The notes beneath the pieces are model-generated. The model ran no database searches. It saw only the letters and a list, made by a program, of their open reading frames with translations, and had not been told where the DNA came from. The translations under genes and the position numbers were made by a program. Below, piece after piece: positions 35,340 through 62,500 of a DNA stretch of 64,000 nt. Origin of the DNA: an archaeon (GTDB lineage Archaea; Nanobdellota; Nanobdellia; SCGC-AAA011-G17; GW2011-AR17). How positions within the stretch are numbered: position 1 is the stretch's first letter; every line of letters begins with the position of its first letter. The stretch spans positions 120,413 to 184,412 of the forward strand of contig JABHYY010000018.1 in the NCBI GenBank assembly GCA_018653605.1, given 5' to 3'.

Positions 35340-35355
35340 AAATACCACAAAAAAC

Positions 35356-36819: not shown

Positions 36820-36820
36820 A

Positions 36821-38356: not shown

Positions 38357-38397
38357 TCAGAATAAGCAATAAACTACTCTTTAAAAGATTTTCCAAG

Positions 38398-38688: not shown

Positions 38689-38705
38689 TTCAAAAAAATG
38701 TCCTC

Positions 38706-39782: not shown

Positions 39783-39829
39783 AAACCTTAAAAAATAAAC
39801 TCCAATTTATAAAACCTATGGAACAACAA
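39778..39829. promoter_or_regulatory. 52-nt repeated divergent-promoter module, copy A
   Basis: tccataaaccttaaaaaataaactccaatttataaaacctatggaacaacaa is identical to 42601-42652. It carries TATA-like boxes in both orientations and includes a relic ATG GAA CAA CAA start of a methyltransferase gene. Confidence 0.7.
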
Positions 39830-42557: not shown

Positions 42558-42600
42558 ATAAATAATAACACATACAACCCTTAAATACTTTACTCAACAA

Positions 42601-42652
42601 TCCATAAACCTTAAAAAATAAACTCCAATTTATAAAACCTATGGAACAACAA
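42601..42652. promoter_or_regulatory. 52-nt repeated divergent-promoter module, copy B
   Basis: Identical to 39778-39829. The TATA-like ttaaaaaataaa lies ~25 nt upstream of the methyltransferase ATG at 42641. Confidence 0.7.
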
Positions 42653-44408: not shown

Positions 44409-44506
44409 AAAAATGAGTTAAAATAACTATTCTTATACCTTTTGGTTACCAAATAATTATTTAACATACATAATTCTTATAAACCCTCTTCCAAGATTTC
44501 AAAGGG

Positions 44507-45649: not shown

Positions 45650-47022
45650 AAGTATTACTAGTCTACCCAAACATTGTAGAATCACCTAAAGACATGTCTA
45701 TTGGACTAGGTATCATATCAGCTATGTTAAAAGAAAAAGGACACAAAGTTGAACTAATTGACACAACTTTCAAAGTTTCAGATGACGAAATCATAGACAA
45801 AGTTGACCAATTCAACCCAGACCTAGTTGCAGTCACTGCAGCAACCAATGACCTTCAAAACGCAATAAGAATCTCACAGATAATCAAAGAAACTAAAGAA
45901 GTACCAATCATCTGTGGTGGTTACCATGCAACTGTTGCACCAAAAGACATCATAGACCAAGATTGCTTTGACATGGTTGCAATTGGAGAATCAGAACAAT
46001 CACTAATCAAACTAACAAAAGATCTAAACAACACTAAAATTCCAAACATCTGGTTCAAAAAAGGTAAAAAGATAACAAAAAATGAAATAGGAAAACTAAC
46101 TGAAGATCTAGACAAACTCCCTTTCCCAGACAGAGAAATATTCAACTACCAAAAATACATTGACTCAAACAGAGGCTTAGCAACTTTCATGTCAAGCAAA
46201 GGTTGCCCTTTCTTATGTTCATATTGTATAAACAAAGTTTTGATTGACAAATACAAAGGAAAAGGAAAATTCCTAAGATTCAGATCAATTGACAATTTAA
46301 TGAAAGAAATGAAAGAAGTCATAACAAAATACAAAGTTAAAGAAATTGAATTCTACGACGACACTTTCACTATAAACAAACAAAGACTAAGAGATTTCGC
46401 AAAAAGATATCCAAAAGAAATTGGACTACCATTCTACATTAATGCAAGAGTAAACGCAGTAACAAAAGAAGATTTCAAACTATTGAAAGAAGCAGGATGT
46501 GTAAGAGTATCAATTGGAATCGAAGCAGGCGACCCATACATAAGAAATGACATTCTAAAAAGGTTTCAAAGCAACAAACAAATCATTGACACTTTTCAAT
46601 GGGCAAAAGAAGAAGGACTAAGAACATACTCATTCAACATGATAGGAGTTCCATTTGAAACACAAGAAAGCATAAAAAAAACAATTGAACTCAACAGAAA
46701 AGTTCAACCTGACTATGTAGGAATTTCCATTTTCAATGCATTCAAAGGAACAGAACTGTACGACATATGCAAAAAGAACAAATGGCTAAAGGACAAAGCA
46801 TCAGCATCATACTTCCAATCAAGTAATGTTAACCATCCAAACTTCACAATAAAAGAACTAAAGAAAATAAGAGACAGTTTCGGATTCGAAGTTTACAAAA
46901 ATGCAGACAAAAAAAGAGCATACATTGACTTGATAGACAAAAAACTAACAAAAGTCCCTTTATACACAAAAACAAGATCTTTACTAATAGAAAAAGGGAT
47001 TAAAAAACTCATAGAAAAATGA
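45646..47022 (+). CDS. B12-binding-domain radical SAM enzyme (class B)
   Basis: A B12-binding N-terminal domain followed by SSKGCPFLCSYC. Confidence 0.8.
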   Translation: MKVLLVYPNIVESPKDMSIGLGIISAMLKEKGHKVELIDTTFKVSDDEIIDKVDQFNPDLVAVTAATNDLQNAIRISQIIKETKEVPIICGGYHATVAPKDIIDQDCFDMVAIGESEQSLIKLTKDLNNTKIPNIWFKKGKKITKNEIGKLTEDLDKLPFPDREIFNYQKYIDSNRGLATFMSSKGCPFLCSYCINKVLIDKYKGKGKFLRFRSIDNLMKEMKEVITKYKVKEIEFYDDTFTINKQRLRDFAKRYPKEIGLPFYINARVNAVTKEDFKLLKEAGCVRVSIGIEAGDPYIRNDILKRFQSNKQIIDTFQWAKEEGLRTYSFNMIGVPFETQESIKKTIELNRKVQPDYVGISIFNAFKGTELYDICKKNKWLKDKASASYFQSSNVNHPNFTIKELKKIRDSFGFEVYKNADKKRAYIDLIDKKLTKVPLYTKTRSLLIEKGIKKLIEK

Positions 47023-47906
47023 TCACAGTAATTATAACTGCATACAAAGAGGAAAGAACAGTTGGCAAAGCAATCCAAGCTTTCCTTAACCAAGATTATC
47101 CAGAAGAGATAGAAATTCTAGTAGCTTGCCCTGACAAAGAAACAAAAGCAGTGATAGACCAGTACACAAAGAAACACAAAAATGTAAAATATGTTAAAGA
47201 CCCTGGAAAAGGTAAACCAATAGCACTTAACATCTGTTTCAAAAAAGCAAAAGGTGAGAAATTAATTCTAACTGATGGAGATGTATATGTCAGCAATAAC
47301 AGCATAAAAGAATTAATGAAACAACTAAACAAAGAAAACATTGGAGCAGTCACTTCAAGGCCAAGATCAGTAAACCCAAGGACAACAATGTTAGGCTATT
47401 TCTCGCACCTTTTAACAGACATTGGAGCTCATCACACAAGACTAAAATATGTCAAAAAAAACCAATTTATCGTCTGCTCAGGCTACTTATTTGCAATGAA
47501 AAAACTATTTACAGAAATTCCAGAAGATGCTCTGTCAGATGACGCTGTGATGTCGTATATGATAGCAAACAAAGGCTACAAAATTGGATACGCACCAAAA
47601 GCACAAGTTTATGTTAAATTCCCTACACACCTCAAAGACTGGATTAAACAAAAAAGAAGGTCAGCTGGAGGTTACAACCAAATTGAAACTTACTTCCCAA
47701 AACACAAAAGAATGCGATCATTCTGGGAAGAAATAAAAGAAGGTTGGTACAAACCATTCACATACCCAGAAAACTTTCAAGAATACACCTGGACAGTTTA
47801 CCTATACTTCATAAGACTATACCTTTGGTTCTTAATTTACAAAGATATTAACATAAAAAAGAAAGACTTCAATGAAATTTGGGTTAGAATAGAATCAACA
47901 AAATAA
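47019..47906 (+). CDS. Family-2 glycosyltransferase
   Basis: ITVIITAYKEERTVGKAIQAFLNQDYPEEIEILV...TDGD (DxD). Confidence 0.7.
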   Translation: MITVIITAYKEERTVGKAIQAFLNQDYPEEIEILVACPDKETKAVIDQYTKKHKNVKYVKDPGKGKPIALNICFKKAKGEKLILTDGDVYVSNNSIKELMKQLNKENIGAVTSRPRSVNPRTTMLGYFSHLLTDIGAHHTRLKYVKKNQFIVCSGYLFAMKKLFTEIPEDALSDDAVMSYMIANKGYKIGYAPKAQVYVKFPTHLKDWIKQKRRSAGGYNQIETYFPKHKRMRSFWEEIKEGWYKPFTYPENFQEYTWTVYLYFIRLYLWFLIYKDINIKKKDFNEIWVRIESTK

Positions 47907-47948: not shown

Positions 47949-50900
47949 TTATTTCTTAAAAAATCTTAACTTTTTCTTAATCTCATTAATCTCACTATCT
48001 TCTTTAGAAATTTTAGACTTCAAACCATCTTGCCTAACTGCAAACTTCTTCTTAATATCACCTTGCTTTTGCTCAAACTTCCTTTTATTACTATAATTTT
48101 CAAAATTCTTTTTAACATTACTAAACACATTTCTCTTAGATCCACCCATCATACTCTCTCTTTCAAATTCAATTTTGTTTACAAACTTTCTTTTTTCAGT
48201 ATCCATTTTTAATTTCAAAGATGTTAACCTTTCAATATCTCTTCTTTTCTCATCCTCAAACTTATTTTCAAGTTCTTCCAACCTACCTTTTTGATCAATA
48301 ATCATATTTTGTAATCTTCTCTCATCCTCTTCCTTTTGCTTCTGTATAACCAACCTTCTCTTCTCTTCTTCTTCCTTCCTTCTTTGAATTTTAGCTTCCT
48401 TCTCTTTTCTCTCTTTTTCTCTTTGCATCTCCCTATACTTTTTCCCAATACCAACATAAGCACCAATAATAGAATTCCTGACATCCCTTCTAAACTTCTT
48501 AACTGCCTTTTTCCTTCTTTCTTTTCTCTTAAGAGCATCAAACCTTGCCTTCTTCTTCTCTTCTTCTCTTTTTTTAGCAGCTTCCATATCCAACCTAACC
48601 TTCTCCTTCTTCTCTTCTTTCTCTTTCCTCTCTTTCTCTTTTTCTTCTCTCTCCTTCTCTCTCTCTTCCTTTATTTCTCTTTTCTCTTCAGCTTTCTCTT
48701 CTTTTAATTTTATTATTTCTTTTTCTTTCTCTTCCTTTATTTCTTTAATCTCCTCAACTTTCTCTTCTCTTAACTTTCTTTGTTCTTCCTCTTTCTTCTC
48801 TTTCAACTCTCTTCTTTCCTTATCCTTTTCCTCTCTCATCTCCTTTTTTGCTATCTTAATTCTTTCCTTCTCAGCTTTTCTCCTTGCCTTCTCTTCAATT
48901 CTCCTTCTCTTTCTCTCCTCTTTCCTTCTCCTTCTCTCTTCTCTAATAGCAAACCTTTCTTGTTTTAATTTTTCAAGTCTTTCTTGCCTCTCATTCTCTT
49001 TTTTCTCTTTTTTTACTTTCTTTTCTTCAAGAAGTTCAGCCTTTTTCTTATCACTCTCTTCCCTACTTTTCTCTCTCTCTTCTAACATTTTTTGCTTAAG
49101 AACAATTTCCTTCTCTTCAACACCTTTTAATTCTTTCAACCTTTTTCTTTCTAACAATTCTTTCTTTCTTTCAAAACTAGCTTTTGCCATTCTTTTCTTC
49201 CAACCAACATACCATCTTCTTACAGGAGCATAGGCTTTGGATAAAAAAGAACGCATAGCTTTCTTCCTTTTTGCTTCCAACATCTTTTTCTTAAGAGCAT
49301 CTTCTTTTTCTTCAACATGTTTTAATTGTTTTAACTTTTTACTCTCTAATTGATCTTTTTTCTTTTCAGCTTCAGCTTTTGCTTTTCTTTTCTTACTATG
49401 AGCACGCCATTTTTTTATTGGATTAAAAACTTTAACAATATGCATAAACAAGGCATGATTAACACTCTTACAATCTTTCTTAAAACCTTTAATTCTCAAT
49501 CTTAAACTCTTTTTCTTAGACTCAATCTTCTTAGAATGCCTTCTTGGAATAATAACTCTCAAATAAGCCTGGATAAAGAATATGAAATAAGTTAACACAA
49601 ACAAGAATAATAATATTACAATCAAACCAACTAACCAACAAGTAGGATTTGTCCATGAACAGAAAGCAAAGCTAGACTGTAAACCTGGAGAAGCTTCAAC
49701 AACATCAAACACATAAGATGAAGTTCCAGTTGATCCAACATAAGAAGCTATAGCACCAAAAACATAAGTACCAGTTCTAAAATCAGCAGGGAAATCAATA
49801 GTTTTAATAAAAGAAACTTGAGAATCAACAACAACAGTTTCAGTTTCACTATATAAACTGTTTCCATTTAAATCTTTAACAAAATATTCAACATCAATAC
49901 TTAAAGCATCTTCATCCATTAAATTGTACATCCTAACTGTTGGATTAATTTCCATTCCAGGAACAACATCAACAGTAGGAAAGTTAATATTCATATCAAA
50001 CAACACTTCACTACTTTCAACCTCAACAACAACAGGAAGCAGATCAGTAGAATCAACAGTATCAACATCAACACTACCAATATAAATTCCAGGCAAATAC
50101 TCAATATCATCAATAGCACTATTAAATTGCATTGTAACAACTTTAGTCTGGCCAGGAGTTAACTCAAAATCAGTATCAGACAAACTAAGTATTTCACCAA
50201 AGTTAGAACCAAGATTAACACTTTCAGTCGTATCACCTGTGTTCATCACCCTAAACTCACTCTCAAGCGATTCTTGCTCATTCAATAAAACTTTAATCAT
50301 GATCTGATCAATCTCTAAATCACTAGTAGAAACATCAGAACCAGGAGATAACCCTATATTAGAAACAAACAACACCCCAACAAGAGTTAAAATTAAAGCA
50401 AGCAATACAAAGAATAAAGGAACAATCCTAAAGGCAGTCTTGTGCTTCTTAGCTTCTTTTGCCTCTTTCTTTTCTTTCCACCTTTGTTTTAACTTTCTCT
50501 TTTTTCTCCAAGCAACAAAAGGATTTCTAATAGCATTATAAATTTTCTTGTAAACTCCAAAAATACTAAACAATGATTTAAAATAATTTTTAATATTCTT
50601 TCTCTTTTGCCTTTTCCTAGACATAATTAATTTTCTTTTATCTTTCAAATATTTTTCTTTATCAGATAACTTTCTCAATCTAGCCTTCTCTTTTTTACTT
50701 TCCTCAACAGCCTCTCTTCTAAGATCAGCAGGAGTCTTAAACAAACCAAATATTCTAAAAATAGACTTAAATCCATCAATTCTAGCTCTTCTACGAACTT
50801 CTTTTAATTTTTTCTCCTCTCTTAAGAATTTTAATTTAACAGAAATATCCTTCAATTCGTTTTGATGCCTTCTTTTATCAGCAGTTGCCTCTTTCCTAAT

Positions 50901-52304
50901 CTCATCTTTAGTTTTGAAAAACCCTAAGAAATGGAAAAATCCCTTTACCAAAGAATCTCTTTTCCTCTTCTTCAACCTATGCTTTAACTCCCTTTTCCTT
51001 TCAAGTAAATGCTTCAACTCTTTTTCTTTTTTCAATTTAAGAATCTGTGACTTAACTCTTTTTTCTCTCATATTAGCTAAAACTTTCTTAAAAGAAGAGA
51101 TAGCTTTTGAAGAATAATGTGCAATTATAGACAATACTAAAATAATTACAATACCCAAAATAAGGAAATAAATCTGTACAGGAACAGAAGAAAACAATGC
51201 AGTTAAATTAATAGAAACATCAGCTCTAAATATATAAACAATCAAAGCAATAACCAAAACAAACAAAACAAGAATCAAATAATGAATAAGTTTAAACCTT
51301 TCTTTACTCTTAACTTTATCAACAGTTCTTCTATAAACTTCCTTAGGCTTCAAAACAACAAGCTCATGTAAGTAAGCTCTGAAGTACAACACAACATAAC
51401 TCAACACAAATAAGAATAATAAAGCTAAAATGAAAAATATCAACCAACAAGAAGGATTACCTGAAGAACAAAAACCAGCACTAGCCTGAACAACCTCTTC
51501 TTCTTCCTCACCAACAACATCAAACACATAAGATGAAGTACCAGTTGATCCAGCATAAGATGCAACAGCACCAAAAACATAAGTTCCAACCCTAAAAGTT
51601 TCAGGAATTTCTATTGTTTTAGTGAAGGACACTTGATTATCAACTACAACAGTTTCAGTTTCAGAAAAAAATGTATTTCCATCCAAATCTTTTACAAAAT
51701 AATCCATTGTAATACTCATAGCAGTTTGATCCATCAGATTATATAATCTTACAGTTGGATTAATTTCATCACCAGGATCAACTGTAGTATCAGGAAAATT
51801 AATATTCATATCAAAAAGAACTTCAGTACTCTCAACTTCAATAACAACAGGAATTGTTTCTACATCACCTTCACTTTCAATTTCAACACTTCCAATATAG
51901 ATTCCAGGAATATATTCTATATTGTTTTCTTCAATAATACTATCAAATATAATGCTCACAACTTTAGTTTGCCCAGAAGACAACTCAAAACTACTTTCAG
52001 AAAAAGTTAAAATCCCTCCCAACCCAGAACTCAAAGAAATACTCTTAACACCATCACCAGTGTTCATAACTCTTAATTCTCTAGTTAAACTTTCACCATC
52101 ATTTAATAAAAGTTTGAATATTGCTTGATCAACTTCAACCTCATGAGCAACAACCTCAGGCTCACTAGTTAAATTCATATTAAACACAAAAAATACACCA
52201 ATCAAGATTAGAACAAGTACTAGGATTACAAAGAATAATGGGACTAATTTATTTATATGACTATTTCTATTACTGCTTTGCCTCTTTTGGGTCACCAATT
52301 CCAC
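47949..52304 (-). CDS. Surface protein built from two tandem copies of a signal-anchor + two-beta-domain + TM module, with a ~500-aa E/K/R-rich C-terminal tail
   Basis: Residues ~20-330 and ~620-910 are paralogous (for example DQAIFKLLLNDGESL...FDMNINFPD and DQIMIKVLLNEQESL...FDMNINFPT). Each is followed by a TM helix and a KR-rich stretch. The last ~500 aa are almost pure E/K/R. Confidence 0.55.
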   Translation of the reverse strand: MELVTQKRQSSNRNSHINKLVPLFFVILVLVLILIGVFFVFNMNLTSEPEVVAHEVEVDQAIFKLLLNDGESLTRELRVMNTGDGVKSISLSSGLGGILTFSESSFELSSGQTKVVSIIFDSIIEENNIEYIPGIYIGSVEIESEGDVETIPVVIEVESTEVLFDMNINFPDTTVDPGDEINPTVRLYNLMDQTAMSITMDYFVKDLDGNTFFSETETVVVDNQVSFTKTIEIPETFRVGTYVFGAVASYAGSTGTSSYVFDVVGEEEEEVVQASAGFCSSGNPSCWLIFFILALLFLFVLSYVVLYFRAYLHELVVLKPKEVYRRTVDKVKSKERFKLIHYLILVLFVLVIALIVYIFRADVSINLTALFSSVPVQIYFLILGIVIILVLSIIAHYSSKAISSFKKVLANMREKRVKSQILKLKKEKELKHLLERKRELKHRLKKRKRDSLVKGFFHFLGFFKTKDEIRKEATADKRRHQNELKDISVKLKFLREEKKLKEVRRRARIDGFKSIFRIFGLFKTPADLRREAVEESKKEKARLRKLSDKEKYLKDKRKLIMSRKRQKRKNIKNYFKSLFSIFGVYKKIYNAIRNPFVAWRKKRKLKQRWKEKKEAKEAKKHKTAFRIVPLFFVLLALILTLVGVLFVSNIGLSPGSDVSTSDLEIDQIMIKVLLNEQESLESEFRVMNTGDTTESVNLGSNFGEILSLSDTDFELTPGQTKVVTMQFNSAIDDIEYLPGIYIGSVDVDTVDSTDLLPVVVEVESSEVLFDMNINFPTVDVVPGMEINPTVRMYNLMDEDALSIDVEYFVKDLNGNSLYSETETVVVDSQVSFIKTIDFPADFRTGTYVFGAIASYVGSTGTSSYVFDVVEASPGLQSSFAFCSWTNPTCWLVGLIVILLFLFVLTYFIFFIQAYLRVIIPRRHSKKIESKKKSLRLRIKGFKKDCKSVNHALFMHIVKVFNPIKKWRAHSKKRKAKAEAEKKKDQLESKKLKQLKHVEEKEDALKKKMLEAKRKKAMRSFLSKAYAPVRRWYVGWKKRMAKASFERKKELLERKRLKELKGVEEKEIVLKQKMLEEREKSREESDKKKAELLEEKKVKKEKKENERQERLEKLKQERFAIREERRRRKEERKRRRIEEKARRKAEKERIKIAKKEMREEKDKERRELKEKKEEEQRKLREEKVEEIKEIKEEKEKEIIKLKEEKAEEKREIKEEREKEREEKEKERKEKEEKKEKVRLDMEAAKKREEEKKKARFDALKRKERRKKAVKKFRRDVRNSIIGAYVGIGKKYREMQREKERKEKEAKIQRRKEEEEKRRLVIQKQKEEDERRLQNMIIDQKGRLEELENKFEDEKRRDIERLTSLKLKMDTEKRKFVNKIEFERESMMGGSKRNVFSNVKKNFENYSNKRKFEQKQGDIKKKFAVRQDGLKSKISKEDSEINEIKKKLRFFKK
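48300..49160. repeat. About 0.9 kb polypyrimidine (plus-strand CT-rich) low-complexity tract
   Basis: The plus strand here is almost exclusively c/t (ctcttcttccttcc...), because it is the reverse complement of GAA/AAG/AGA codons encoding the ER/K tail. Confidence 0.8.
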
Positions 52305-52387
52305 CTCTTTTAATTAATTATAAACCAAATACAAGCATTCTATGTTTATAAAACTTATCTTCCAACTATATCTTCCAATTAATTAGT

Positions 52388-53527
52388 TTAGAATAACTTA
52401 TTTTTTCTAAATTTTGCTTTTAATTCCTTTTCTAGCTCTGATCTAACCTCTTTCTGTGTTTTACTTTGCCAGAAATCTAACTTTTTTTCCATTTCTTTAA
52501 CAGATTTCAACCCTTTCAAAGCCTTAGTTTGCTTAAACTGCCTTCTCTTCAACTTCTGCAACTCTTTCTTAATCATCAATTCATAGTCTTTTTTAACCTT
52601 CTTTGAACCTCTTGCTTTCTTCAAAGCTACTTTCTCTTCTTTCTCTAAATCCTTCAAAGAAAATTTATACTCCAAAGAATGTTGTCTAGACAACTCAGCT
52701 AACAACCTATTCCTTTCACCAACAGTTCTCAAAAATAAAATCAAAATTACAACCAAAAAAAGAAGAATTGCAACAGAAATAATCCCTGTATAAACCATAT
52801 TATTTTCTGAATAAGAAACTTTTTTATCAACTACACTAAAGAAATCACTAGCAGTTCCAAAAGACTCTTCATTCTCAACAAGAACAATAAAAACATAATC
52901 ACCTAAATTAACATCACTAGGCAAATTAAAACTTTTTGTAATAGAAATATCAGTTCCAACAACAATACTTTCACTCTCGGTAAACAACACTTCAGAATCT
53001 AAATTTTGAATCTGATAAGTCACATCCAAAGTATGATCTTTAGTATCTTTAACATTAACAATTCTAACAGAAGAAACAAAATCATTACCAGGAACAACTT
53101 CCTTATAATTATGTGAAACATCTAAGTTAGGAACAAAATAAACATTTTGTGTTTGAACCTCAATAACAATAGGAACCATCTCAGAAGTAACCCCAGTAGA
53201 GACAGATAAATAACCAACATAAACTCCAGCTTCAACATCAACAGCATTAAAACTTAGTTCCACAACCCTCTCTTCACCCTTACTCAAACTAAACTCACTC
53301 TCACTTAAAGCAAAAAAATCAAACCCTACAACATCAACACTATAACTAGTATCAGTAAAACTTTCTATAGTAATATCCTGACTAATTTCCTCACCCTGCT
53401 TAACAACTGACTTCAAAAGAAAAATATCAACCTCAAATTCTTCATTACAAACTAAACATAAACTTAGAACAATCAACAAAATAAACAAAACTACTCCAAT
53501 CAAACCAAGAATATACCTCTTTTTCAT
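52388..53527 (-). CDS. Surface protein with signal-anchor + two-beta-domain module + TM + KR-rich tail
   Basis: A single copy of the module shared with 47949-52304 and with the C-terminus of the giant protein (FNAVDVEAGVYVGYLSV...; FVPNLDVSHNY...). Confidence 0.55.
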   Translation of the reverse strand: MKKRYILGLIGVVLFILLIVLSLCLVCNEEFEVDIFLLKSVVKQGEEISQDITIESFTDTSYSVDVVGFDFFALSESEFSLSKGEERVVELSFNAVDVEAGVYVGYLSVSTGVTSEMVPIVIEVQTQNVYFVPNLDVSHNYKEVVPGNDFVSSVRIVNVKDTKDHTLDVTYQIQNLDSEVLFTESESIVVGTDISITKSFNLPSDVNLGDYVFIVLVENEESFGTASDFFSVVDKKVSYSENNMVYTGIISVAILLFLVVILILFLRTVGERNRLLAELSRQHSLEYKFSLKDLEKEEKVALKKARGSKKVKKDYELMIKKELQKLKRRQFKQTKALKGLKSVKEMEKKLDFWQSKTQKEVRSELEKELKAKFRKNKLF

Positions 53528-53531
53528 TTAT

Positions 53532-56500
53532 TTATCTAAAGGGTAAGAGCTTTTTATACTTTACGATTACTATAATCAAGAATATAAGTACAACAACACT
53601 CAAAGTTAAAGTTAAAATCCACTGTGATTCTGATAACTCTGTATCTACAACAGCAAACTGTTCACTCGCAGTTGCAACACCACCAGAGTAAACAACCTCA
53701 GCACCATACACATAATCACCAACAGGTAAACCACTAATATCCAACTCTTTGTTAAACAATGCTTGTTCAAACACAGCAATTGTATCACTTTCTGTTAACA
53801 AAGTGTTACCATAAAAATCCTTAACAACATAATTCAAAGTAACATCCTCTTTCTGTTGGAACCCTGCTTGTAATAAGAAAATTTGGCCAGTAATTTTATC
53901 ACCAGGTGCAATCCTTTTATCAAACAAGTTTACATTAATATCAAACAAACTTTTTTCAGACTGAACATTAATTGAAACAGGAATATTAAACACTTCATTA
54001 CCATAATACAACTTAATAGTACCAGCAAACACACCAGTTTCAGTCGGCACTAAATTAAAACTAATGCTTCTTGATTCACCTGGCTGTAAAGTTATTACAC
54101 TGCCTTCAATGTCCAGAATATCCAAGCCAATTAATTCAATAGTAACTTCAATAGGGACTAACAAATTATTATTTATTTCAAATGAATCACTTGTTATAAA
54201 TCCTTTAACAGCACTAAAATCAAATGAATATTCATCAACTGAAAAAGATTGAACAGGGATTTCTGGTGCCCTAATTATACTTTCATTTTCATCATCATCT
54301 TTACTGGATCCTCCACCGCCTCCACCACCACCGCCACCAACAGCAGCAGCCTCTTCCTCTTCAGCAGCAACAGCAACAATAGTAACACTCAAATTATCAC
54401 TCCAAGAACTCCAACCATTACCATCATAAATTCTTACAGACAAACTCCAAACATCTCCACCAGTCAAATTAGCAGAAGCAACAGTTGTAGAATTTAACAA
54501 CCCACTCTGTAAAGCATCATCTTTTGACCACCTAGTTTCATTCAAAACCTGACTATCTCCATCAATATCACTAAAAGTCCAAGAACTTTGTAAATTTCCA
54601 CTAGTTAAATTCTCATCAGAACTGGAGTTCATTGTAACAACAAAACTTGGCAAACTATTCAAAACAGTTAAAGAGTTAGTCCAAACAGTAGCACCATCAA
54701 CAAACCCATCATTAGGTGTAACAGAAGCATTCCAAACATCACCACCACCAATCTCTTCAGCAACAATAACATTATCACTAGCATATATAGCTCTAACTTG
54801 TTCAACACTTAAACTTTGATTAAAAATCATAACTTCATCAAGAGACCCATTAAACTCAAACCTAGAATAACCATAAATATAAGAACCAATACAAAGTTCT
54901 TCACCAGTAGCATTAAACCCATCCATAACACCAGAAAGAGTTATTGATAAAGCATCACCATCAAAATAAAGACTATAATTATATCCTTCAGTATAAACAG
55001 CAGCAACATGATGCCAACCACCATCACTAAACCCTACACTATTAACATAACCAGCACCACCAACATCACCAAAATAAAGCCTATCATTACTAGCCTGATA
55101 ACCAACATAATACCCTTTATTATTACCAACTCTACCATTTGAAACCATTTTCCTTTCTTCAGTATCACTCACAGGAGCTAAATTTTTCATCCAAAAAACA
55201 ATTGAAAAATTTTCATCCTCAAAATCATACCTTCCATCATTTGGAACAGCTATATAATCTTCATAAAACACATAAGCACCTGACCCATCATAACCACCAC
55301 TTTGATTCCAAACAGGTTTAAATTCAAAAGTAGCATTACCTAAAGTACCATTATTACTATACTCAGAATAATCCTTAACACCACTAGAATTATCTTCACT
55401 TCCATTAATATCAAAAGGCATATTTAGCACAGTAAGAGAAGCACCATCTTTGTACCAATTAACAATATTTTTAACACTATCACTATCAACATCAGAAGAA
55501 TAATTATACAAAGTAATATTATCAGTTGTAATATTGGTTCCACTAAAATTCAAACTAGGCACACCTTGGTAAGGAGGAGCATTCAAAGTTGTAACACTTA
55601 AATTGTCAATCCAACCACCCCAAGAAGTCCCATCAAAAACTCTAACAGAAAAATTCCAAACTTCTTCTTTACTAACATTACCTTCAGTAACACTTGTAGA
55701 ATTTAACAAACTACTCTGCAAAGCACTATCCTTAAACCACCTAGTCTCATTCAAAACTTCACTATCACTATCTAAATCACTAAAAGTCCAAGAAGTTTGT
55801 AAAGTGGAATTACTATAATTAGTAGAACTAGTTGCATTCATAGCAAAGTTAGTAACATAAGGAGCAGGATTATCCAAAGTAACACTAACATTAGAACTCC
55901 AACCACTCCAAGAAGTACCATCATAAACTCTTATACTAAGATTCCAAACTTCACCACCAGTTAAATTGCCTGCAACAACATTTGTTGAATTAATAATCTG
56001 TAAAGCACCATCTTTAAACCAACGAGTCTCATTCAAAACCTGACTATCACTATCCAAATCATTGAAAGTCCAAGAACTTTGTAAAGTGGAATTACTATAA
56101 TTGTTAACACTTGTAGAATTCATTACTAAATTAGTAACATAAGGAGCAGGATTACTCAAAGTAACACTAACATTACTACTCCAACCACTCCAAGAAGTAC
56201 CATCATAAACTCTAATACTTAAATTCCAAACCTCACCACCAGTTAAATTTCCTGCAACAATAGTAGTAAAATTTAACAAACCACTCTGTAAAGAACCATC
56301 CTTAAACCAACGAGTCTCATTCAAAACTTGGCTATCACTATCCAAATCATTGAAAGTCCAAGAACTTTGTAAAGTTCCATTACTATAATTATTAACACTT
56401 GTTGAATTCATAACCAAATTAGTAATATAAGGAGCAGGATTACCCAAGGTAACACTAACATTACTACTCCAAGAACTCCAAACAGTACCATCATAAACTC

Positions 56501-59500
56501 TAATAGACAAGTTCCAAACTTCACCGCCAGTTAAATTCCCTAAAGCAACATCAGTAGAATTTAACAAACCACTCTGTAAAGCACCATCCTTAAACCAACG
56601 AGTCTCATTCAAAACTTGGCTATCAGCATCAGCATCTCCAAAATCCCAAGAACTTTGCAAAGTACCATTACTGTAATTATTAACACTAGTTGAATTCATT
56701 GTAATGTTACCAACAGTAGGAGCAGAATTTGAAATAGTTAAAGAATTAGACCAAACAGAAGCACCATCAATTAAACCATCATTAGGTGTAATTGTAACAT
56801 TCCAAACATCATCAGAAGAAATTTCTTGTGAAACAATCTTGTTAGTTTGATTCATATAAAGAGCTTCAACTTGTTCAGCTGACAAACTTCTATTCCAAAC
56901 CATAACTTCATCTATTGTTCCATTAAACTCATAAGTATAATCTCTAGTCCCAACATGAAATTTACTTGTACTCCCTTCAATAGAAGAAATAGTTGAAGTT
57001 GTTTCTGTACTTAAATTACCATTTCTATACATTTTCATTCCATTAGTATTAGTAGTTCCATCCCATGTTGCAACAATATGAACCCATGTATTCAAAGGAA
57101 CATCTGTAGTATCTGTTGCTTGAGTTCCAGTAGAAGAATCTGCAATTATAAAAATTGGATCTCTACTAAACAACCCAATATAATAATCAACATCAGAATA
57201 AGGCCCTAAATCTTCATCTAATTTCCCAGCAATATGTGAATGATCAGAAGGTCCATAACCTTTTATATAAATCCAAGAAGAAATACTAATAGGACCAGTA
57301 ATATTCAAACTAGAAGACCAACTAACATTTATTGAATCTGCATTTCCATCAAACTCATAAGCACCAAAACCATCATAGCCACCAGTGCTATTCCAAGTAG
57401 CACCTATATTAGTTCCATTATTACCATACCCAGAATAATCTTTTCCACCCTCATCACTACCATTATTTTCAAAAGGAATATTCAACACAGTAGTACTATT
57501 CCCATTTAGATACCAATTATAAACATTCTTAACATTATCACTATCAGCGTCAGCAGTACTTACATTATACACAGTTAAATTATCACTAGTAGTATTACTA
57601 CTAGTTGTAGCATTCAAAATAGGTGTTCCTTGTGTAGGAGCACTATTCAAAATAGTAACAGAGTTAGACCAAACAGTAGCACCATCAATCAAACCATCGT
57701 TAGGTGTAACAGTAGCATTCCAAACATCACCTTTAGAAGTTTCTTGAGAAACCATTTTATTACTCTGATTCATATAAAGAGCTCTAACTTGCTCAGCAGA
57801 GAGACTATGATTAAAAACCATTACCTCATCAATACTTCCATTATAATCTCTAGCACCATTCCCATTTAAACCAATAAGTAATTCTTTGGTAGTATTTATG
57901 TCACCAATACTTGATATATCAGAACTTACATCAAATGCTCCATCAACATATATACTCATATCTGCATCTCTATCAAAAGTAACAGAAACATGATGCCAAG
58001 TACCATCAGCTACTGTTACAGTTCCAACCTTAAAAACTTCATCAAATTCAGTATCAGAAATCTCACAATAAACTTTATCAGTTCCTGCATTACTACAAAA
58101 AAATCCAGGAGCACTACTCAAACCATTCCTTTTAGAGATTACATCTTCACCAACACCATCATCATCATTTATCCAATAAGATAAAGAAAAGTCAGTAAAA
58201 TTCCCAAAATCAAATTTATTATTATCAGATACAACAATCTTATCATTCACTCCATCAAACTCATAAGCACCAAAACCATCATAACCACCAGTGCTATTCC
58301 AAGTAGCACCTGCTTTAGTACCATTATTCTCATAACCGGAATAATCTTTTCCACCTTCATCACTACCATTATTTTCAAAAGGCATGTTCAACACAGTAAT
58401 ACTTGTTCCATTCTTATACCAATTAATAATATTCTTCACAGCACCACCATCAGCGTCAGCAGTACTTACATTATATACAGTCAAATTAGCACTAGTTAAA
58501 TTTGCACTTGTGGTAGCATTCAAAACAGGAGTTCCTTGATGAGGTGCAGAATTTAAAATACTAATACTAACATTATAACTCCAACCACTCCAAGAAGTAC
58601 CATCATAAAGACGAACAGACAAATTCCAAACCTCAGCACCAGATAAATTCCCTGCAACAACAGTTGTAGAATTTAATAACCCACTTTGTAAAGCACCATC
58701 CTTAAACCATTTTGTTTCATTCAAAACTTGTGAATCACTATCCAAGTCACTAAAGGTCCAAGAACTTTGTAAAGTCCCATTACTATAATTGTTAGCATTA
58801 GTTGAATTCATAACTAAATTAGTAACATAAGGAGGTGGATTTCCAAGACTAATACTTACATTAGAACTCCAAGCACTCCAAACAGTTCCATCATAAACCC
58901 TAATACTAAGATTCCAAACTTCACCACCAGTTAAATTCCCTAAATCAACAGTTGTAGAATTTAAAACTTGCAAAATGCCATCTCTAAACCACCTAGTTTC
59001 ATTCAAAACTTGTGAATCAACATCAGCATCACCCATATCCCAAGAACTTTGCAAAGTACCATTACTATAATTGTTAGAACTAGTTGAATTCATTGTAATG
59101 TTTCCAACAGTTGGAGCAAAATTTGCAGCAACAACAGTAACTGAATTAGACCAAACAGTAGCACCATCAATAGTACCATCATTAGGTGTAATTGTAGCAT
59201 TCCAAACATCAGCTGCAGAAATTTCTTGTGAAACAATTACATTAGTTTGATTCATATAAATAGCTCTTACTTGTTCAGCAGATAAAGATCTATTCCAAAT
59301 CATAACTTCATCTATATTTCCACTAAATCTATGGGATGAATCTCCATCTCTAGAGCCAATATACAAGTCATTGTTAGTATCAGAAGTAGCAGATTGAATA
59401 GTACCAGTTACTGTTCCTCCTTCTTCAACACCATTTATATACATAGTTATGTTAGGTACTGATGTATCATATACCGCAGCCAAATGATACCAAGTATCTA

Positions 59501-62500
59501 CTTGTAAAGAAGTTACTCCAGTTTTATAAAAAGAATTAGAACCATCATTCATATAAAATCTCATAACATCCCCACCATTAAGAACAGCCACATACCAATT
59601 TCTAGGACTACTTTGATCTTTAGATATCACATAAGCATCTTGAGTATCTGATGGAAGTGAATAAAAATAAACCCATGTTGATATTGTCCTATCTTTGGTC
59701 AAACTTAATGAAGTAGAATCTAGAACTTTAAAATAAGTTTGGGAGGCACCAGAAAAAGTATAAGCACCAAAACCATCATAACCACCAGTAAGATTCCAAG
59801 TTGCAGCAGCATTAGTTCCATTATTTTCATAACCAGAATAATCTTTTCCACCTTCATCACTACCATTATTTTCAAAAGGCATGTTCAACACAATAGTACT
59901 ATTTCCATTAAGATACCAATTATAAATATTCTTCACAGCACCACCATCAGCGTCGGCAGTACTTACATTCCAAACAGTCAAGTTAGCACTAGTTAAATTT
60001 GCACTAGTTGTAGCATTCAAAGTAGGAGTATTTTGTATTGGTGCAGCATTAACAATACTAATACTTACATTTGCACTCCAAGAACTCCAAACAGTGCCAT
60101 CATAAACTCTAATAGACAAGTTCCAAACTTCATCCTTACTAATATTACCACCAGCAACAGTTGTAGAATTTAATAACCCACTCTGTAAAGCACCATCCTT
60201 AAACCACCTAGTTTCATTCAAAACTTGACTATCAGCATCAGCATCACCCATGTCCCAAGAACTTTGTAAAGTACCATTACTATAATTATTAACACTAGTT
60301 GAATTCATTGTAATATTACCAACAGTAGGAGCACTATTCAAAACAGTTAAAGTATTAGACCAAATTGTAGCACCATCAATCAAACCATCATTAGGTGTTA
60401 CAGTAGCATTCCAAACATCACCAGTAGAAGTCTCTTGTGAAACTATTTTATCAGTTTGATTCATATAAAGAGCTCTAATTTGTTCTGGAGATAAGGTTGA
60501 ATTAAATACTAAAATATCATCTACACTCCCTTCAAAATAATTACTCTTCCCACCATTATTAATCTCTCCTGTCCCTATAAATCCATTGTCTAACCCAGTT
60601 AAATCATTAAACCATTTAGTTTTGTCATTTGAACTAATAAATGTTTGAGCAACCTCTACTCCATTAACATATACTACTGGACTAACCCCATCTTGAACTA
60701 AAGCTACATGTGTCCAAACGCCATTAGAAAAGGCTGCAGAATTAGTGTCAATTTGCCATTGGAGTGAACCAGCATCATATACAATTGCCCTGAATTTTGC
60801 ATCTGTTGATACTTGTATAAGTACAAATTCATTTGCATTAGTATCTGCAAAACCAAAAACTCTATCATTAGATGCTGGTGTAGCATCGACAGGTTTCCAC
60901 CACATTGACCATGTTCCTTGTGTTGTACTCGATAAAGAGTTTGTTAAAGAATTTGTAATTTCAATATAACTACTACTACCATCAAACTCATAAGCACCAA
61001 AGCCATCAAAACCACCAGAACTACTCCAAGTTGCACCAACATTAGTTCCATTATTATCAGAACCAGAATAATCTTTAGCATTTGTTGAATTTGTATCTCC
61101 TTCAAAAGGCATATTAAGAACTGTCAAACTATTCCCATTTAGGTACCAATTATAAACATTCTTAACAGCACCACCATCAGCGTCGGCAGTACTTACATTC
61201 CAAACAGTCAAATTAGCACTAGTTAAATTTGCAGTAGTTGTAGCATTCAAAGTAGGAGTACCTTGTGTAGGAGCACTATTCAAAACAGTTAAACTATTAG
61301 ACCAAGTTGTAGCACCATCAACAGTTCCATCATTAGGTGTAATTGTAGCATTCCAAACATCACCAGTAGAAGTTTCTTGTGAAACAATTACATTGGTTTG
61401 ATTCATATACAAAGCTCTTACTTGTTCTGCAGATAAAGAACTATTAAAAATCATAACATCATCAATTGAACCATTAAAATAACTTGTAGCTGAAGAACCA
61501 AACCTACCAATAGCCAAAATACCAGAAGTATCTAAATTCCCAACTGAAGATATGCTATCTCTATCTTCTTCAATACCATTAACATAAATTACTTGATCAC
61601 CATCTCTATCTAATGTCCAAGCAACATGATACCAATCATTATTACTAACATTTGTAGTTCCTATTGAAGGGATATTATTTGAACCATCATTAACTCTTGC
61701 AAGAATTGCTCCAGTTGTTGTTACTTGTAATCGATATAATGGGGTTGAACCAGCACTCTTAGCTATAATCTCCTGAGTATTTTTCAAAGTTTTTATCCAT
61801 AAAGAAATACTCAAGTCAGTTGCAGTCCCAATGTCAATTTTATCACCCAAATCAATATAGTCACCACTTCCATCAAACTCATAAGCACCAAAGCCATCAT
61901 AACCACCAGTTCCATTCCAAACAGCATTATACCTTGTACCATTATAACTCAATTCAGAATAATCTTTAGTATTAGAAGAGTTTGAATCACCTTCAAAAGG
62001 CATATTCAAAACAGAAATACTTGTACTATTCTTATACCAGTTAATAATATTCTTCACAGCACCACCATCAGCATCGGCAGTACTTACATTGTATACAGTT
62101 AAATTACCACTAGTTAAATTTGCAGTAGTGGTAGCATTCAAAATAGGAGTATCATGTATTGGTATAGCATTAACAATACTAATACTAACATTAGAACTCC
62201 ATGCACTCCAAGAAGTACCATCATAAACTCTAATACTTAAATTCCAAACTTCACTCTGACTAATATTACCACCATCAACAGTTGTAGAATTTAACAAACC
62301 ACTCTGTAAAGCATCATCCTTAAACCAACGAGTCTCATTCAAAGACTGAGAATCACCATCAGCATCACCCATGTCCCAGTAACTTTGCAAAGTACCATTA
62401 CTATAATTGTTAGAACTAGTTGAATTCATTGTAATGTTACCAACAGTAGGAGCAGAATTTGCAGCAACAACAGTAACAGAGTTAGACCAAGTTGTAGCAC

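What the first reader, a model, noticed from the sequence alone, without database searches (positions are those of the whole stretch)
47949..53527. Three consecutive surface proteins share a C-terminal anchoring module, and one is an in-frame tandem fusion ending in a ~500-aa E/K/R-rich tail
The same ~300-aa module (two beta-rich domains, a hydrophobic TM helix and a basic segment) appears three times. It ends the giant protein, forms the 379-aa protein, and occurs twice within the 1,451-aa protein. There, each copy is preceded by a signal-anchor-like helix (residues ~20-45 and ~625-650), and the junction reads like the start of a separate gene. The protein then ends in ~500 residues of almost pure Glu/Lys/Arg, which resembles a single-alpha-helix (ER/K) or coiled-coil domain on the cytoplasmic side. 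This suggests a family of membrane-anchored surface modules with variable ectodomains and cytoplasmic spacers or scaffolds. The fusion could be real, or it could be a missed stop or frameshift. The encoding DNA at 48300-49160 is a ~0.9 kb polypurine/polypyrimidine tract prone to slippage and H-DNA formation.
Basis: partly seen in the sequence, partly recalled or inferred. Interest (0 to 1): 0.55.

Follow-up and report, generated by a model that had tools for sequence, protein, structure and literature searches.

The report
Membrane-stapled Ig-module family of DPANN archaea
Three neighbouring genes of a tiny symbiotic-type (DPANN) archaeon really do share one outer-surface module, and they belong to a large protein family with no match in the libraries searched; I infer, but have not shown, that it ties sugar-coated surface adhesins to long, positively charged helical tails inside the cell.

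Summary
All three minus-strand genes carry one homologous unit of about 220 aa, made of two Ig-like beta-sandwiches next to a membrane helix. The genes are A (47949-52304), B (52388-53527) and C (53532 to beyond 63926). A carries the unit twice, at 58% identity.

A is not a missed stop or frameshift. Three independent assemblies reproduce it, and a 71%-identical ortholog keeps the same junction in frame. That ortholog lacks copy 1 through an in-frame deletion between two membrane-helix codings. The "fusion" is therefore an old internal duplication of a TM-module-TM cassette that leaves membrane topology unchanged.

The tail is cytoplasmic by the positive-inside rule, at net +81. Only about 250 of its 542 residues are ER/K-like. 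The rest is conserved basic helix.

The module defines a family with 4,805 cluster representatives and no Pfam or NCBIfam model. Loci with organism labels are mostly Woesearchaeota or Nanoarchaeota. It has three architectural classes. A class I gene (variable ectodomain, module, C-terminal TM) lies directly upstream of a class II or III gene in 39 loci.

My best reading, which is inferred and not shown, is that the modules pair in the membrane. That would couple a glycosylated LamG adhesin to a cytoplasmic helical scaffold.

The parts
47949..52304 (-). Gene A. It is 1,451 aa from the GTG at 52304. Gene callers start at the GTG at 52295, giving 1,448 aa (P0008). It is a class III-like long-tail protein with two module cassettes.
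52182..52238 (-). A TM1 (res 23-41). Signal-anchor helix, running in to out.
   Evidence: hydropathy and charge; AF2 helix 14-42
51444..52181 (-). A module copy 1 (res 42-287). Two Ig-like sandwiches, net charge -34, extracellular by inference.
51387..51443 (-). A TM2 (res 288-306), preceded by the class III juxtamembrane motif FCxxxNPxCW.
51123..51278 (-). A TM3-loop-TM4 hairpin (res 343-394). The ortholog in L001 fuses TM1 directly to TM3 here.
50427..51122 (-). A cytoplasmic linker (res 395-626, net +57). Four long helices are broken at three corner motifs.
   Evidence: dN/dS 0.18
50901..50939 (-). Corner motif 1, FFHFLGFFKTKDE (res 456-468). This is the family signature [F/L]Hx[I/L]G[L]YKTPEE.
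50724..50762 (-). Corner motif 2, IFRIFGLFKTPAD (res 515-527).
50535..50573 (-). Corner motif 3, a degenerate copy, LFSIFGVYKKIYN (res 578-590).
50370..50426 (-). A TM5 (res 627-645). This is the 'junction' helix and is homologous to TM1.
49635..50369 (-). A module copy 2 (res 646-890, net -33). It is orthologous to the only module of the L001 protein.
49578..49634 (-). A TM6 (res 891-909).
47952..49577 (-). A cytoplasmic tail (res 910-1451). It has 201 K+R and 120 D+E, net +81.
49083..49454 (-). Tandem duplication of about 65 aa inside the tail (res 951-1009 against 1016-1074, 51% identity, E 6e-16). The L001 ortholog has a single copy.
48477..49091 (-). ER/K-like segment (res 1072-1276, 205 aa). 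Composition is E 30%, K 27%, R 17%, with no G or P. It is encoded by the purine-rich, indel-prone tract.
47952..48599 (-). Conserved C-terminal region (res 1236-1451). It is 78% identical to the ortholog, with dN/dS 0.09. Its last ~70 aa are shared by P0010, P0011, P0021 and P0157.
52388..53527 (-). Gene B (379 aa), class II. TM 9-27, module 28-247, TM 248-266, then the juxtamembrane motif ERNRLL and a 113-aa basic tail (net +20). Its start lies 4 nt after the stop codon of C.
53532..64000 (-). Gene C, class I. A giant LamG-repeat glycoprotein that is open to the window edge. It is at least 3,488 aa here and 4,103 aa in L050. It carries 171 N-X-S/T sequons.
53562..54284 (-). C's membrane-proximal module (res 3215-3436 of the 3,464-aa numbering) plus its single C-terminal TM. 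A 9-aa basic end, KYKKLLPFR, follows.

Best explanation
**Shown**
- C, B and A are three real genes. They represent the three architectural classes of a large family that has no Pfam or NCBIfam model. Where an organism label was available (41 loci), the labels are mostly DPANN archaea.
- The family is built around one module of about 220 aa. The module is two tandem PapD/ASH/MSP-type Ig sandwiches next to the membrane.
  - Class I (C): a variable ectodomain, here LamG repeats rich in N-glycosylation sequons, then the module, one C-terminal TM and a stub of about 9 aa.
  - Class II (B): TM, module, TM, then a basic tail of about 110-130 aa.
  - Class III (A): TM, module, TM, then a basic helical tail of 300-1,300 aa. 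The tail is punctuated by conserved helix-corner motifs of the type FLHxIGLYKTPEE.
- A is one polypeptide with six TM helices. An old in-frame duplication of the TM-module-TM cassette gave it two modules.
- The cassette enters and leaves the membrane from the cytoplasmic side. It can therefore be gained or lost without changing the topology of the rest of the protein. The ortholog in L001 lost copy 1 this way, through an ILV-codon microhomology between TM1 and TM3.

**Inferred**
- Both modules face outward, and the linker and tail are cytoplasmic.
- About 205 aa of the tail could be a single charged helix roughly 30 nm long.

**Proposed mechanism (inferred, not shown)**
- The glycan-free modules of a class I protein and of its class II or III neighbour pair side by side on the outer face of the membrane.
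- An adhesin that has almost no cytoplasmic part of its own would then be tied to a long polycationic helical scaffold under the membrane.
- With two modules, A could dock two partners.
For: **The ORF is real**
- L050 is 99.988% identical to the window over 24,347 nt with 0 gaps.
- L007 spans the junction at 99.97% identity.
- L001 and L002 keep the junction in frame.
- dN/dS is 0.09-0.41 in all parts tested.

**Topology**
- Six hydrophobic helices alternate between acidic loops (-34, -33) and basic loops (+6, +57, +81).
- In class I the module follows a sequon-rich LamG ectodomain or a signal peptide.

**Fold**
- AF2 gives pLDDT 84.6 for B and 85-95 for both modules in A.

**Family**
- The profile search returns 4,805 hits, of which 1,309 are at E<=1e-30.
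- Pfam and NCBIfam give nothing above threshold.
- The 41 loci are labelled mostly Woesearchaeota or Nanoarchaeia.

**Classes and duplication history**
- The NJ tree places (P0010, M1) at 76% and (L001, (P0009, M2)) at 100% bootstrap.
- The deletion junction is visible at the DNA level.

**Pairing of classes**
- Class I lies immediately upstream on the same strand of class III in 34 loci.
- Class I lies upstream of class II in five lineages, separated by a 4-nt gap, a 4-nt overlap or, in L051, a 34-nt gap.
- Distances between class I and class III modules correlate at r = 0.87-0.90. The partial r is 0.63-0.83 after controlling for a neighbouring control gene, with Mantel p = 0.0005.
- Modules are depleted in N-glycosylation sequons. 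There is 1 against 9.4 expected in this locus, and 114 against 325 family-wide. C's ectodomain has 171 against 72 expected.

**Tail**
- The corner motif occurs 49 times in 55 long proteins, against 0.7 in shuffles.
- AF2 helices break exactly at the motifs.
Against: - No experiment and no complex prediction supports module-module pairing. Adjacency could be a relic of tandem duplication.
- The mirror-tree signal could arise because both partners are paralogs of one fold with similar saturation, or from gene conversion.
- Sequon depletion was judged only against shuffles. It could also reflect closeness to the membrane.
- The AF2 model of A 1-930 has pTM 0.37, so it says nothing reliable about domain packing.
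- Topology rests on the positive-inside rule and on homology, not on a dedicated predictor or an experiment.
- The i/i+4 charge pattern of the ER/K-like segment is only weakly SAH-like, at 68 against 52.
- All assemblies are short-read metagenomes.
- Canonical class III proteins sit among housekeeping genes, which gives no functional hint.
Confidence: 0.5

Rival explanations
1. The three proteins are independent paralogs. The module is only a passive membrane-proximal stalk inherited through tandem gene duplication. C acts alone as an adhesin, and A and B have unrelated roles.
For: - The module has a generic Ig fold with no catalytic or ligand motif.
- Tandem paralogs are often adjacent.
- In canonical pairs the median intergenic gap is 250 nt, so co-translation is not implied.
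Against: - The three classes are separate old clades, yet they remain neighbours in the same order in about 39 loci across orders.
- C to B spacing is 4 nt. A 4-nt overlap occurs in L003 and L052.
- The partial mirror-tree correlation is 0.63-0.83.
- Modules are depleted in sequons.
Confidence: 0.3
2. The tails are not spacers. They are polycations that bind an anionic partner such as nucleoid DNA, RNA or ribosomes, or acidic lipid head-groups. Together they form a sub-membrane skeleton or tether, and the outside module only positions it.
For: - The tails have net charge +81 in A, +20 in B, a median of +48 in long tails and +24 in short tails.
- Amphipathic helices of about 40-65 aa are joined by conserved aromatic corners.
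- The C-terminal region is under strong purifying selection, with dN/dS 0.09.
- This reading is compatible with the best explanation.
Against: - No nucleic-acid-binding or lipid-binding domain was detected.
- Composition alone is not specific.
Confidence: 0.25
3. Class II and III modules are membrane-tethered PapD-like chaperones or assembly factors. They would hold or present the class I module by beta-strand complementation during its export and glycosylation.
For: - The module has a two-Ig-domain layout.
- The class I gene is always immediately upstream.
Against: - Only one domain aligns, about 110-125 residues. ASH and MSP domains score equally well.
- No sequence family membership was found.
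- Chaperone-usher systems are bacterial, periplasmic and soluble.
- A chaperone role does not explain the long cytoplasmic tails.
Confidence: 0.05
4. The 1,451-aa ORF is an assembly or sequencing artefact, caused by a missed stop or frameshift, or by a chimeric join of two paralogous genes.
For: - The two copies are 76% identical at DNA level over 485 nt.
- Only short-read assemblies are available.
- Contigs L007 and L008 end inside the gene.
Against: - Three independent assemblies agree, and L050 covers the whole gene with no indel.
- The junction is conserved and under purifying selection in an ortholog at about 78% DNA identity.
- The six-TM topology is self-consistent.
- No start codon lies near the junction.
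Confidence: 0.02

Closest known systems
ER/K single alpha-helix (SAH) domains, for example the myosin lever extensions (PMC5812594, PMC5378345)
   Same: Residues 1072-1276 are 74% E+K+R, have no G or P, are 15% hydrophobic, and show no heptad signal. Such helices act as rigid connectors or springs.
   Different: Only about 250 of the 542 tail residues qualify. The net charge is strongly positive, unlike the roughly balanced classical SAHs. The i/i+4 pattern is weak. The rest of the tail has conserved hydrophobic corners and a conserved C-terminal region. Monomeric state is untested.
PapD-like / ASH / MSP Ig-fold domains (Hydin, CFAP65, VAP MSP, fimbrial chaperones; Pfam PF22544, PF07610)
   Different: No sequence-level membership. 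Here there are two domains in tandem held between two TM helices on the archaeal cell surface. The known families are cytoplasmic or ciliary, or are soluble periplasmic chaperones.
Large LamG/ConA-like lectin-type surface proteins of DPANN archaea, proposed as host-attachment systems in nanohaloarchaea (PMC7443923)
   Same: C is a giant protein with at least eight LamG_3 domains and 171 N-glycosylation sequons. It lies next to a glycosylation gene cluster.
   Different: In the one passage of that paper that I read, no membrane-proximal module or partner protein is mentioned. The shared module, its class II and III partners and their tails are what this analysis adds.
Bitopic bacterial scaffolds with long charged helical domains (EzrA, TolA domain II). 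From my own knowledge, not tested here.
   Same: A TM anchor plus hundreds of residues of charged alpha-helix used as a membrane-attached scaffold or spacer.
   Different: No homology was detected. TolA's helix is periplasmic. Neither has an ectodomain held at both ends, nor a paralogous partner gene.
[not shown]
   Same: Ig-like domains, glycosylation, and a single C-terminal TM followed by a short basic end, as in C.
   Different: There is no PGF-CTERM motif. C ends in KYKKLLPFR. No sequence similarity was found. A role as an S-layer is not shown.

Membership tests
ER/K single alpha-helix (SAH) domain | A long stretch dominated by E, K and R, poor in hydrophobic residues, without helix breakers | tested here: met
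   Met for residues 1072-1276 (205 aa) and 1288-1330 (43 aa) only. Not met for the whole 542-aa tail.
ER/K single alpha-helix (SAH) domain | A dense network of i to i+4 (and i+3) opposite-charge pairs that outweighs same-charge pairs | tested here: inconclusive
   There are 68 opposite-charge against 52 same-charge i/i+4 pairs in 1072-1276, and 16 against 4 in 1288-1330. My own simple score was used, not Waggawagga or SCAN4CSAH.
ER/K single alpha-helix (SAH) domain | A monomeric, stable helix in solution | not testable with these tools
   Needs CD and AUC or SAXS on a peptide.
Canonical coiled coil | Heptad (3.5-residue) periodicity of hydrophobic residues at about 28% or more | tested here: not met
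   In windows 1041-1180 the power at 3.5 is 0.01-0.04 and the hydrophobic fraction is 16-27%. Weak signals appear elsewhere, at 985-1040 and 1321-1376.
PapD-like / ASH / MSP Ig fold | Beta-sandwich of that topology, judged by structure comparison | tested here: met
   [not shown]
Pfam HYDIN_VesB_CFA65-like_Ig (PF22544), DUF1573 (PF07610), Wzt_C, DUF4625 | Score at or above the family's gathering threshold | tested here: not met
   A scores 19 bits against 30.4 for Wzt_C and 15.2 against 26.1 for DUF1573. B scores 14.3 against 27 for DUF4625. A canonical class I protein scores 24.9 against 25.5 for PF22544.
Chaperone-usher PapD-type chaperones | Soluble periplasmic two-domain boomerang that aligns over both domains | tested here: not met
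   Alignments cover about 110-125 residues, which is one domain. The module is anchored to the membrane at both ends in an archaeon.
The TM-2Ig-TM family of DPANN-labelled archaea described here (no existing name found) | A profile match over the whole module, flanked by TM helices | tested here: met
   A twice at E about 1e-105 to 1e-107, B at 8e-109 and C at 5e-77. The global profile search gives 4,805 hits.
Long-tail (class III) subfamily | An FCx(4-6)C loop before the second TM, AYL after it, corner motifs [F/L]HxxG[L]xKT in a cytoplasmic basic region at least 300 aa long, and an N-terminal KRYIxKHGKKxGPYYY domain | tested here: inconclusive
   The Cys loop, AYL, the motifs (at 457 and 516, plus a degenerate one at 579) and the long tail are present. 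The module clade with class III has 100% support for the A clade but weak support deeper in the tree. The N-terminal KRYI domain is absent and an extra TM3-TM4 hairpin is present, so A belongs to a divergent subclade together with P0010, P0011, P0021 and P0157-159.
Archaeosortase / PGF-CTERM anchored surface proteins | A C-terminal PGF motif, then TM, then a basic end | tested here: not met
   C ends ...SESQW-[TM]-KYKKLLPFR with no PGF.

The most novel reading that the evidence does not exclude
Woesearchaeales-type DPANN archaea possess a previously undescribed two-part transmembrane coupling system. A class I surface protein has a variable, often giant and glycosylated, ectodomain. It docks through its membrane-proximal two-Ig module onto the paralogous module of a class II or III protein. 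The polycationic helical tail of that partner, 300-1,300 aa long and built of helices joined by conserved FLHxIGLYKTPEE corners, forms a sub-membrane skeleton or tether. The TM-module-TM cassette behaves as a topologically neutral unit that can be duplicated or deleted in frame to change docking valency, as seen between the window protein and its L001 ortholog.
Probability: 0.3. Interest if true: 0.75.

Novelty: new variant of a known kind. Interest (0 to 1): 0.55.

Why it matters
- DPANN archaea are thought to live attached to hosts. The paper I consulted predicts that their large LamG/ConA-like proteins belong to a host-attachment system (PMC7443923). I found no description of how these proteins are held in the cell envelope.
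- This locus shows that the adhesin shares its membrane-proximal module with partner proteins. Those partners carry very long cytoplasmic tails.
- The same gene pair is a conserved feature of dozens of Woesearchaeota-type genomes, with thousands of family members and no Pfam or NCBIfam model.
- If the modules do pair, this would be the first candidate physical link between surface adhesins and the cell interior in these organisms.
- It also provides a clean natural example of protein evolution by gain and loss of a topologically neutral TM-ectodomain-TM cassette.
- If the modules do not pair, the result is still a well-delimited new family. It also settles that the long ORF is genuine.

Tried and rejected
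- **Artefact or frameshift.** Rejected using three independent assemblies and the ortholog.
- **Separate gene start at the junction.** Rejected. No in-frame start codon lies in the 48 codons upstream, and the only Shine-Dalgarno-like AAGGTGG is not followed by a start.
- **Known family.** Pfam and NCBIfam on A, B, the tails, the linker and canonical members gave nothing above threshold. PDB sequence searches with the module profile and with the tail gave nothing.
- **RNA genes.** Rfam and tRNA scans of the window were empty.
- **Structure libraries.** The afdb50 fold library was unavailable.
- **Locus search.** The search for related loci with the broad alignment A1 failed for lack of conserved stretches. 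It succeeded with the narrower alignment A2.
- **Exact look-up.** Looking up the 1,451-aa translation failed because callers use the GTG three codons downstream.
- **L051 protein.** I tested whether the TM-less 719-aa charged protein downstream of a class I and II pair in L051 is a detached tail. No homology was detectable, so I gave it no weight.
- **AF2 model of A 1-930.** It has pTM 0.37, so I did not interpret domain packing.
- **Literature.** Five searches found no description of this family.
- **Reversed topology.** Modules inside and tail outside was rejected. In class I proteins the same module follows secreted, sequon-rich or Cys-rich ectodomains.


Full report
**1. What is in the sequence**

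The region holds three consecutive minus-strand ORFs.
- A is 47949-52304, 1,451 aa from a GTG.
- B is 52388-53527, 379 aa.
- C is 53532-63926.

Gene callers in public assemblies start A three codons later, giving 1,448 aa (P0008). C has no stop up to the window edge, so it is at least 3,488 aa here. It is 4,103 aa in a near-identical contig. The window is 29-35% G+C.

BLASTP confirms the shared unit.
- A 31-264 and A 638-870 match B 6-234 at E 3e-28 and 6e-33.
- They match the C-terminus of C (3269-3458) at E 2e-18 and 2e-10.

The two copies inside A are 58% identical over 298 aa (E 3e-116). A profile HMM of the module finds exactly these four copies in the 64-kb window and no others.

**2. 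Anatomy**

Kyte-Doolittle scanning gives A six hydrophobic helices: 23-41, 288-306, 343-361, 376-394, 627-645 and 891-909. The loops between them alternate in charge.
- N-terminus: +3
- Module 1: -34
- Short loop: +6
- 14-aa loop: -1
- Linker: +57
- Module 2: -33
- Tail: +81

This is a self-consistent topology under the positive-inside rule. Both modules face outward, and the linker and tail are inside.

B has two helices around an acidic module (-28) and a +20 tail. C has one C-terminal helix followed by KYKKLLPFR.

An extracellular position for the module is supported independently by class I proteins. In these the module directly follows a LamG ectodomain with 171 N-X-S/T sequons against 72 expected by shuffling. 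In other genomes it follows a signal peptide and a Cys-rich domain. The N-terminal hydrophobic stretches are 22-23 residues long. From this I infer uncleaved signal anchors. That inference is not tested.

AlphaFold2 predicts B 1-280 as helix, two beta-sandwiches (31-125 and 131-232), then helix, with mean pLDDT 84.6. In A 1-930 both modules have pLDDT 85-95. The overall pTM is 0.37, so I do not interpret packing.

**3. Is the long ORF real?**

Yes, on four lines of evidence.
- L050 (ENA ERZ27250158) is 99.988% identical to the window over 24,347 nt, with three mismatches and no gap. It encodes the same protein apart from one substitution.
- L007 (ERZ4200990) and L008 (ERZ4200997) are two further assemblies at 99.97% and 99.9%. 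L007 spans the junction.
- A syntenic relative, L001 (GCA_974502265.1), and L002 (a Logan assembly) have DNA identity of about 78-89%. They encode a 1,105-aa ortholog that is 71% identical over 1,056 aligned residues.
- That ortholog contains the whole linker, TM5, module 2, TM6 and tail in one frame.

No ATG, GTG or TTG lies in frame in the 48 codons before TM5.

Nei-Gojobori dN/dS values are as follows.
- Linker: 0.18
- Module 2: 0.21
- Last 216 aa: 0.09
- Module 1 against module 2: 0.41

**4. What the "fusion" really is**

The L001 ortholog lacks A residues of about 30-346. Its N-terminus reads KLVPLFFVILV|FVLIIALLIYIF, which is A's TM1 joined to A's TM3. At the DNA level the join lies within ATC CTA GT(A/T), an I-L-V codon microhomology present in both helices. 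The event removes two membrane passes and keeps the topology.

An NJ tree of modules gives (P0011, ((P0010, A-M1) 76%, (L001-M, (P0009, A-M2) 96%) 100%) 93%). This topology means that:
- the M1/M2 duplication predates the split between the window lineage and L001;
- L001 later lost M1;
- relatives such as P0010 carry only an M1-type module.

The repeated unit runs exactly from the basic residue before the incoming TM to the AYL after the outgoing TM. It is a TM-module-TM cassette that starts and ends in the cytoplasm. Among the 161 family proteins I retrieved, only the window's protein has two full modules.

A second, smaller tandem duplication lies in the tail. Residues 951-1009 and 1016-1074 are 51% identical (E 6e-16), and the segment is single-copy in L001.

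**5. The tail and linker**

The tail is 542 aa, with 201 K+R and 120 D+E. Only 1072-1276 (205 aa; E 30%, K 27%, R 17%, hydrophobic 15%, no G or P) and 1288-1330 meet a simple ER/K criterion. Hydrophobic periodicity at 3.5 residues is absent there. That argues against a classical coiled coil. However, i/i+4 opposite-charge pairs only modestly exceed same-charge pairs, at 68 against 52. An SAH of about 30 nm is therefore plausible but not established.

The DNA encoding this part is 79-91% purine on the coding strand, with pure runs up to 74 nt and many imperfect short repeats. Compared with L001 it differs by several in-frame indels, and L001 has extra REEELREKKE-type units. Length instability is real. 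H-DNA formation was not tested.

The flanks are not low-complexity filler. The last 216 aa are 78% identical to the ortholog, and the final ~70 aa recur in P0010, P0011, P0021 and P0157.

The linker and the tails of relatives carry a conserved motif, [F/L]Hx[I/L]G[L]YKTPEE. It occurs 49 times in 55 long proteins, against 0.7 in shuffles and once in 106 short proteins. A has it at 457 and 516, plus a degenerate copy at 579. AF2 breaks the linker helices exactly there, giving helices 374-459, 466-517, 525-578 and 586-648. I read the motif as a helix C-cap, aromatic knob and TPEE N-cap corner. This is an inference. Four helices of similar length between TM4 and TM5 would fit an up-down-up-down arrangement. 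That is speculation.

**6. The family and its genomic rule**

A profile of the module was searched against 1.84 billion representatives. It finds 4,805 proteins at E<=1e-3 and 1,309 at E<=1e-30. They fall into two size groups, about 400 aa and 700-1,670 aa.

The scan of one genome per species gave 41 loci. Most are labelled Woesearchaeota, Nanoarchaeia or Nanoarchaeota, with a few Pacearchaeota and Aenigmatarchaeota. Fourteen are labelled "uncultured Methanosarcinales" but share the same synteny, so I doubt that label. Close relatives of A come from a TARA mesopelagic 0.1-0.22 um fraction.

Three module clades match three architectures.
- Class I: ectodomain, module, TM.
- Class II: TM, module, TM, the motif ERNRLL, then a tail of about 130 aa.
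- Class III: a cytoplasmic N-terminal KRYIxKHGKKxGPYYY domain, TM, module with an FCx(4-6)C loop, TM, then a long tail. Long tails have a median length of 640 aa, up to 1,327 aa, and a median net charge of +48.

In 34 loci a class I gene lies immediately upstream of the class III gene on the same strand, with a median gap of 250 nt. The class I gene is about 400 aa, or 768-2,541 aa in three loci. The pair sits in a fixed housekeeping neighbourhood that includes an Asn-synthase-like gene, DUF371, a PUA protein, aIF5B and a DRG GTPase.

In five lineages a class I gene lies directly upstream of a class II gene. These are the window, L001, L003-6, L051 and L052. The spacing is a 4-nt gap, a 4-nt overlap or, in L051, a 34-nt gap.

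The window locus runs C, then B, then A. It combines both rules and lies beside a glycosylation and radical-SAM cluster that is conserved in L001.

**7. How it most likely works**

The following points are shown:
- the architecture;
- the reality of the ORF;
- the cassette history;
- the family's size and taxonomic labels;
- the gene-order rule.

The rest is inferred. Class I proteins have almost no cytoplasmic part. Class II and III proteins have almost no ectodomain beyond the module. Each class supplies what the other lacks, and they are kept adjacent over large evolutionary distances. I therefore propose that their modules pair laterally on the outer face of the membrane. This would link a variable surface protein, here a giant glycosylated LamG lectin-type adhesin, to a cytoplasmic polycationic helical scaffold.

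Two weak supports exist.
- **Sequon depletion.** Modules are about three-fold depleted in N-glycosylation sequons, at 114 against 325 family-wide and 1 against 9.4 in this locus. The adjoining ectodomain is 2.4-fold enriched.
- **Mirror tree.** Across 21-22 genomes, class I and class III module distances correlate at r = 0.87-0.90. The partial r is 0.63-0.83 after controlling for a neighbouring control gene, with Mantel p = 0.0005. Class I against the control, given class III, is about zero.

Both supports have alternative explanations, namely closeness to the membrane and the shared fold and saturation of paralogs. My confidence is about 0.9 for the structural and evolutionary description and about 0.4 for the pairing mechanism.

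What the tail binds is unknown. Possibilities are nothing (a pure spacer), acidic lipids, nucleic acid or another protein.

**8. Comparison with what is known**

Large LamG/ConA-like, heavily N-glycosylated proteins of nanohaloarchaea have been proposed as host-specific attachment systems (PMC7443923). C fits that description. SAH domains are described as rigid connectors or springs made mostly of charged residues (PMC5812594, PMC5378345). Part of the tail resembles them in composition.

I found no description of the module family, the class I with class II or III gene pair, the corner motif or the cassette behaviour. I looked in Pfam, NCBIfam, PDB sequences and five full-text literature searches.

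**9. Verdict**

The finding is real and the artefact reading is excluded.
- A arose by an internal cassette duplication, not a gene fusion.
- A has six TM helices.
- About 250 residues of the tail are ER/K-like, not 500.

The interesting part lies beyond the original coordinates. It is a large family without a Pfam or NCBIfam model, found mostly in genomes labelled as DPANN archaea, with a conserved two-gene arrangement whose function is open.

Noticed in passing
window 53532-64000 (-); L050:1-8764: The giant LamG protein C runs off the window edge. It is 4,103 aa in a 99.988%-identical contig. Its ectodomain has 171 N-X-S/T sequons against 72 expected by shuffling, while its terminal module has none.
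   Followed up: partly
L001:1-9996: The relative has two giant class I genes (2,250 and 2,625 aa) that overlap by 8 nt, each ending in its own module and TM. The window has one longer gene. Both loci hold four modules in total: 2+1+1 in L001 and 1+1+2 in the window. This may be coincidence.
   Followed up: partly
window 39816-42557 (-): A 913-aa ORF with no Pfam hit. Its N-terminal half consists of tandem repeats of about 40 aa of the type '(E)RTWPxFVDGFIRMVEASGE..LF..GIPAVKDLI'. It sits inside the glycosyltransferase cluster and is conserved in L001 and L050.
   Followed up: no
window 33462-47906: A glycosylation and modification cluster. It holds a heparinase II/III-like protein, two B12-binding radical SAM enzymes and a radical SAM/SPASM enzyme, four GT4 enzymes, one GT2 and a methyltransferase. 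It is conserved in order with L001 at 88-89% nt identity and may glycosylate the adjacent giant protein.
   Followed up: partly
L051:2453-4612: A 719-aa K/E-rich protein with no module hit (net +84) lies directly downstream of a class I and class II pair. It resembles a detached long tail in composition, but no homology was detectable.
   Followed up: partly
L039:5974-9921: This class III gene contains a run of Ns inside exact repeats that each include a corner motif (a 78-aa stretch occurs twice verbatim). Tail repeats probably collapse in short-read assemblies, so tail lengths in MAGs may be underestimates.
   Followed up: no
L010, L015, L016, L018, L020 and nine other loci: Fourteen MAGs are titled 'uncultured Methanosarcinales archaeon'. 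They carry the same gene pair, and those with enough flanking sequence show the same housekeeping synteny, as Woesearchaeota MAGs. The taxonomic label is doubtful.
   Followed up: no
P0004, P0005, P0007 (class II tails); L003, L052: Some class II tails end in short repeats such as 'KWKKQGYDTGVLEK' or 'AYNSGYISEEAYRK'. From memory these resemble SHOCT-like oligomerisation motifs. This was not tested.
   Followed up: no
A residues 343-394 (window 51123-51278); P0158 and P0159 351-435: The extra TM3-loop-TM4 hairpin of the A subclade gives faint HMM matches to the start and end of the module cassette (E 0.2-7). It could be the remnant of a collapsed cassette.
   Followed up: no
L052:2937-5064: Three toxin-antitoxin-type gene sets lie just upstream of a class I and class II pair: a ParE toxin, HicA with a HicB-like antitoxin, and PemK with an RHH protein.
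   Followed up: no
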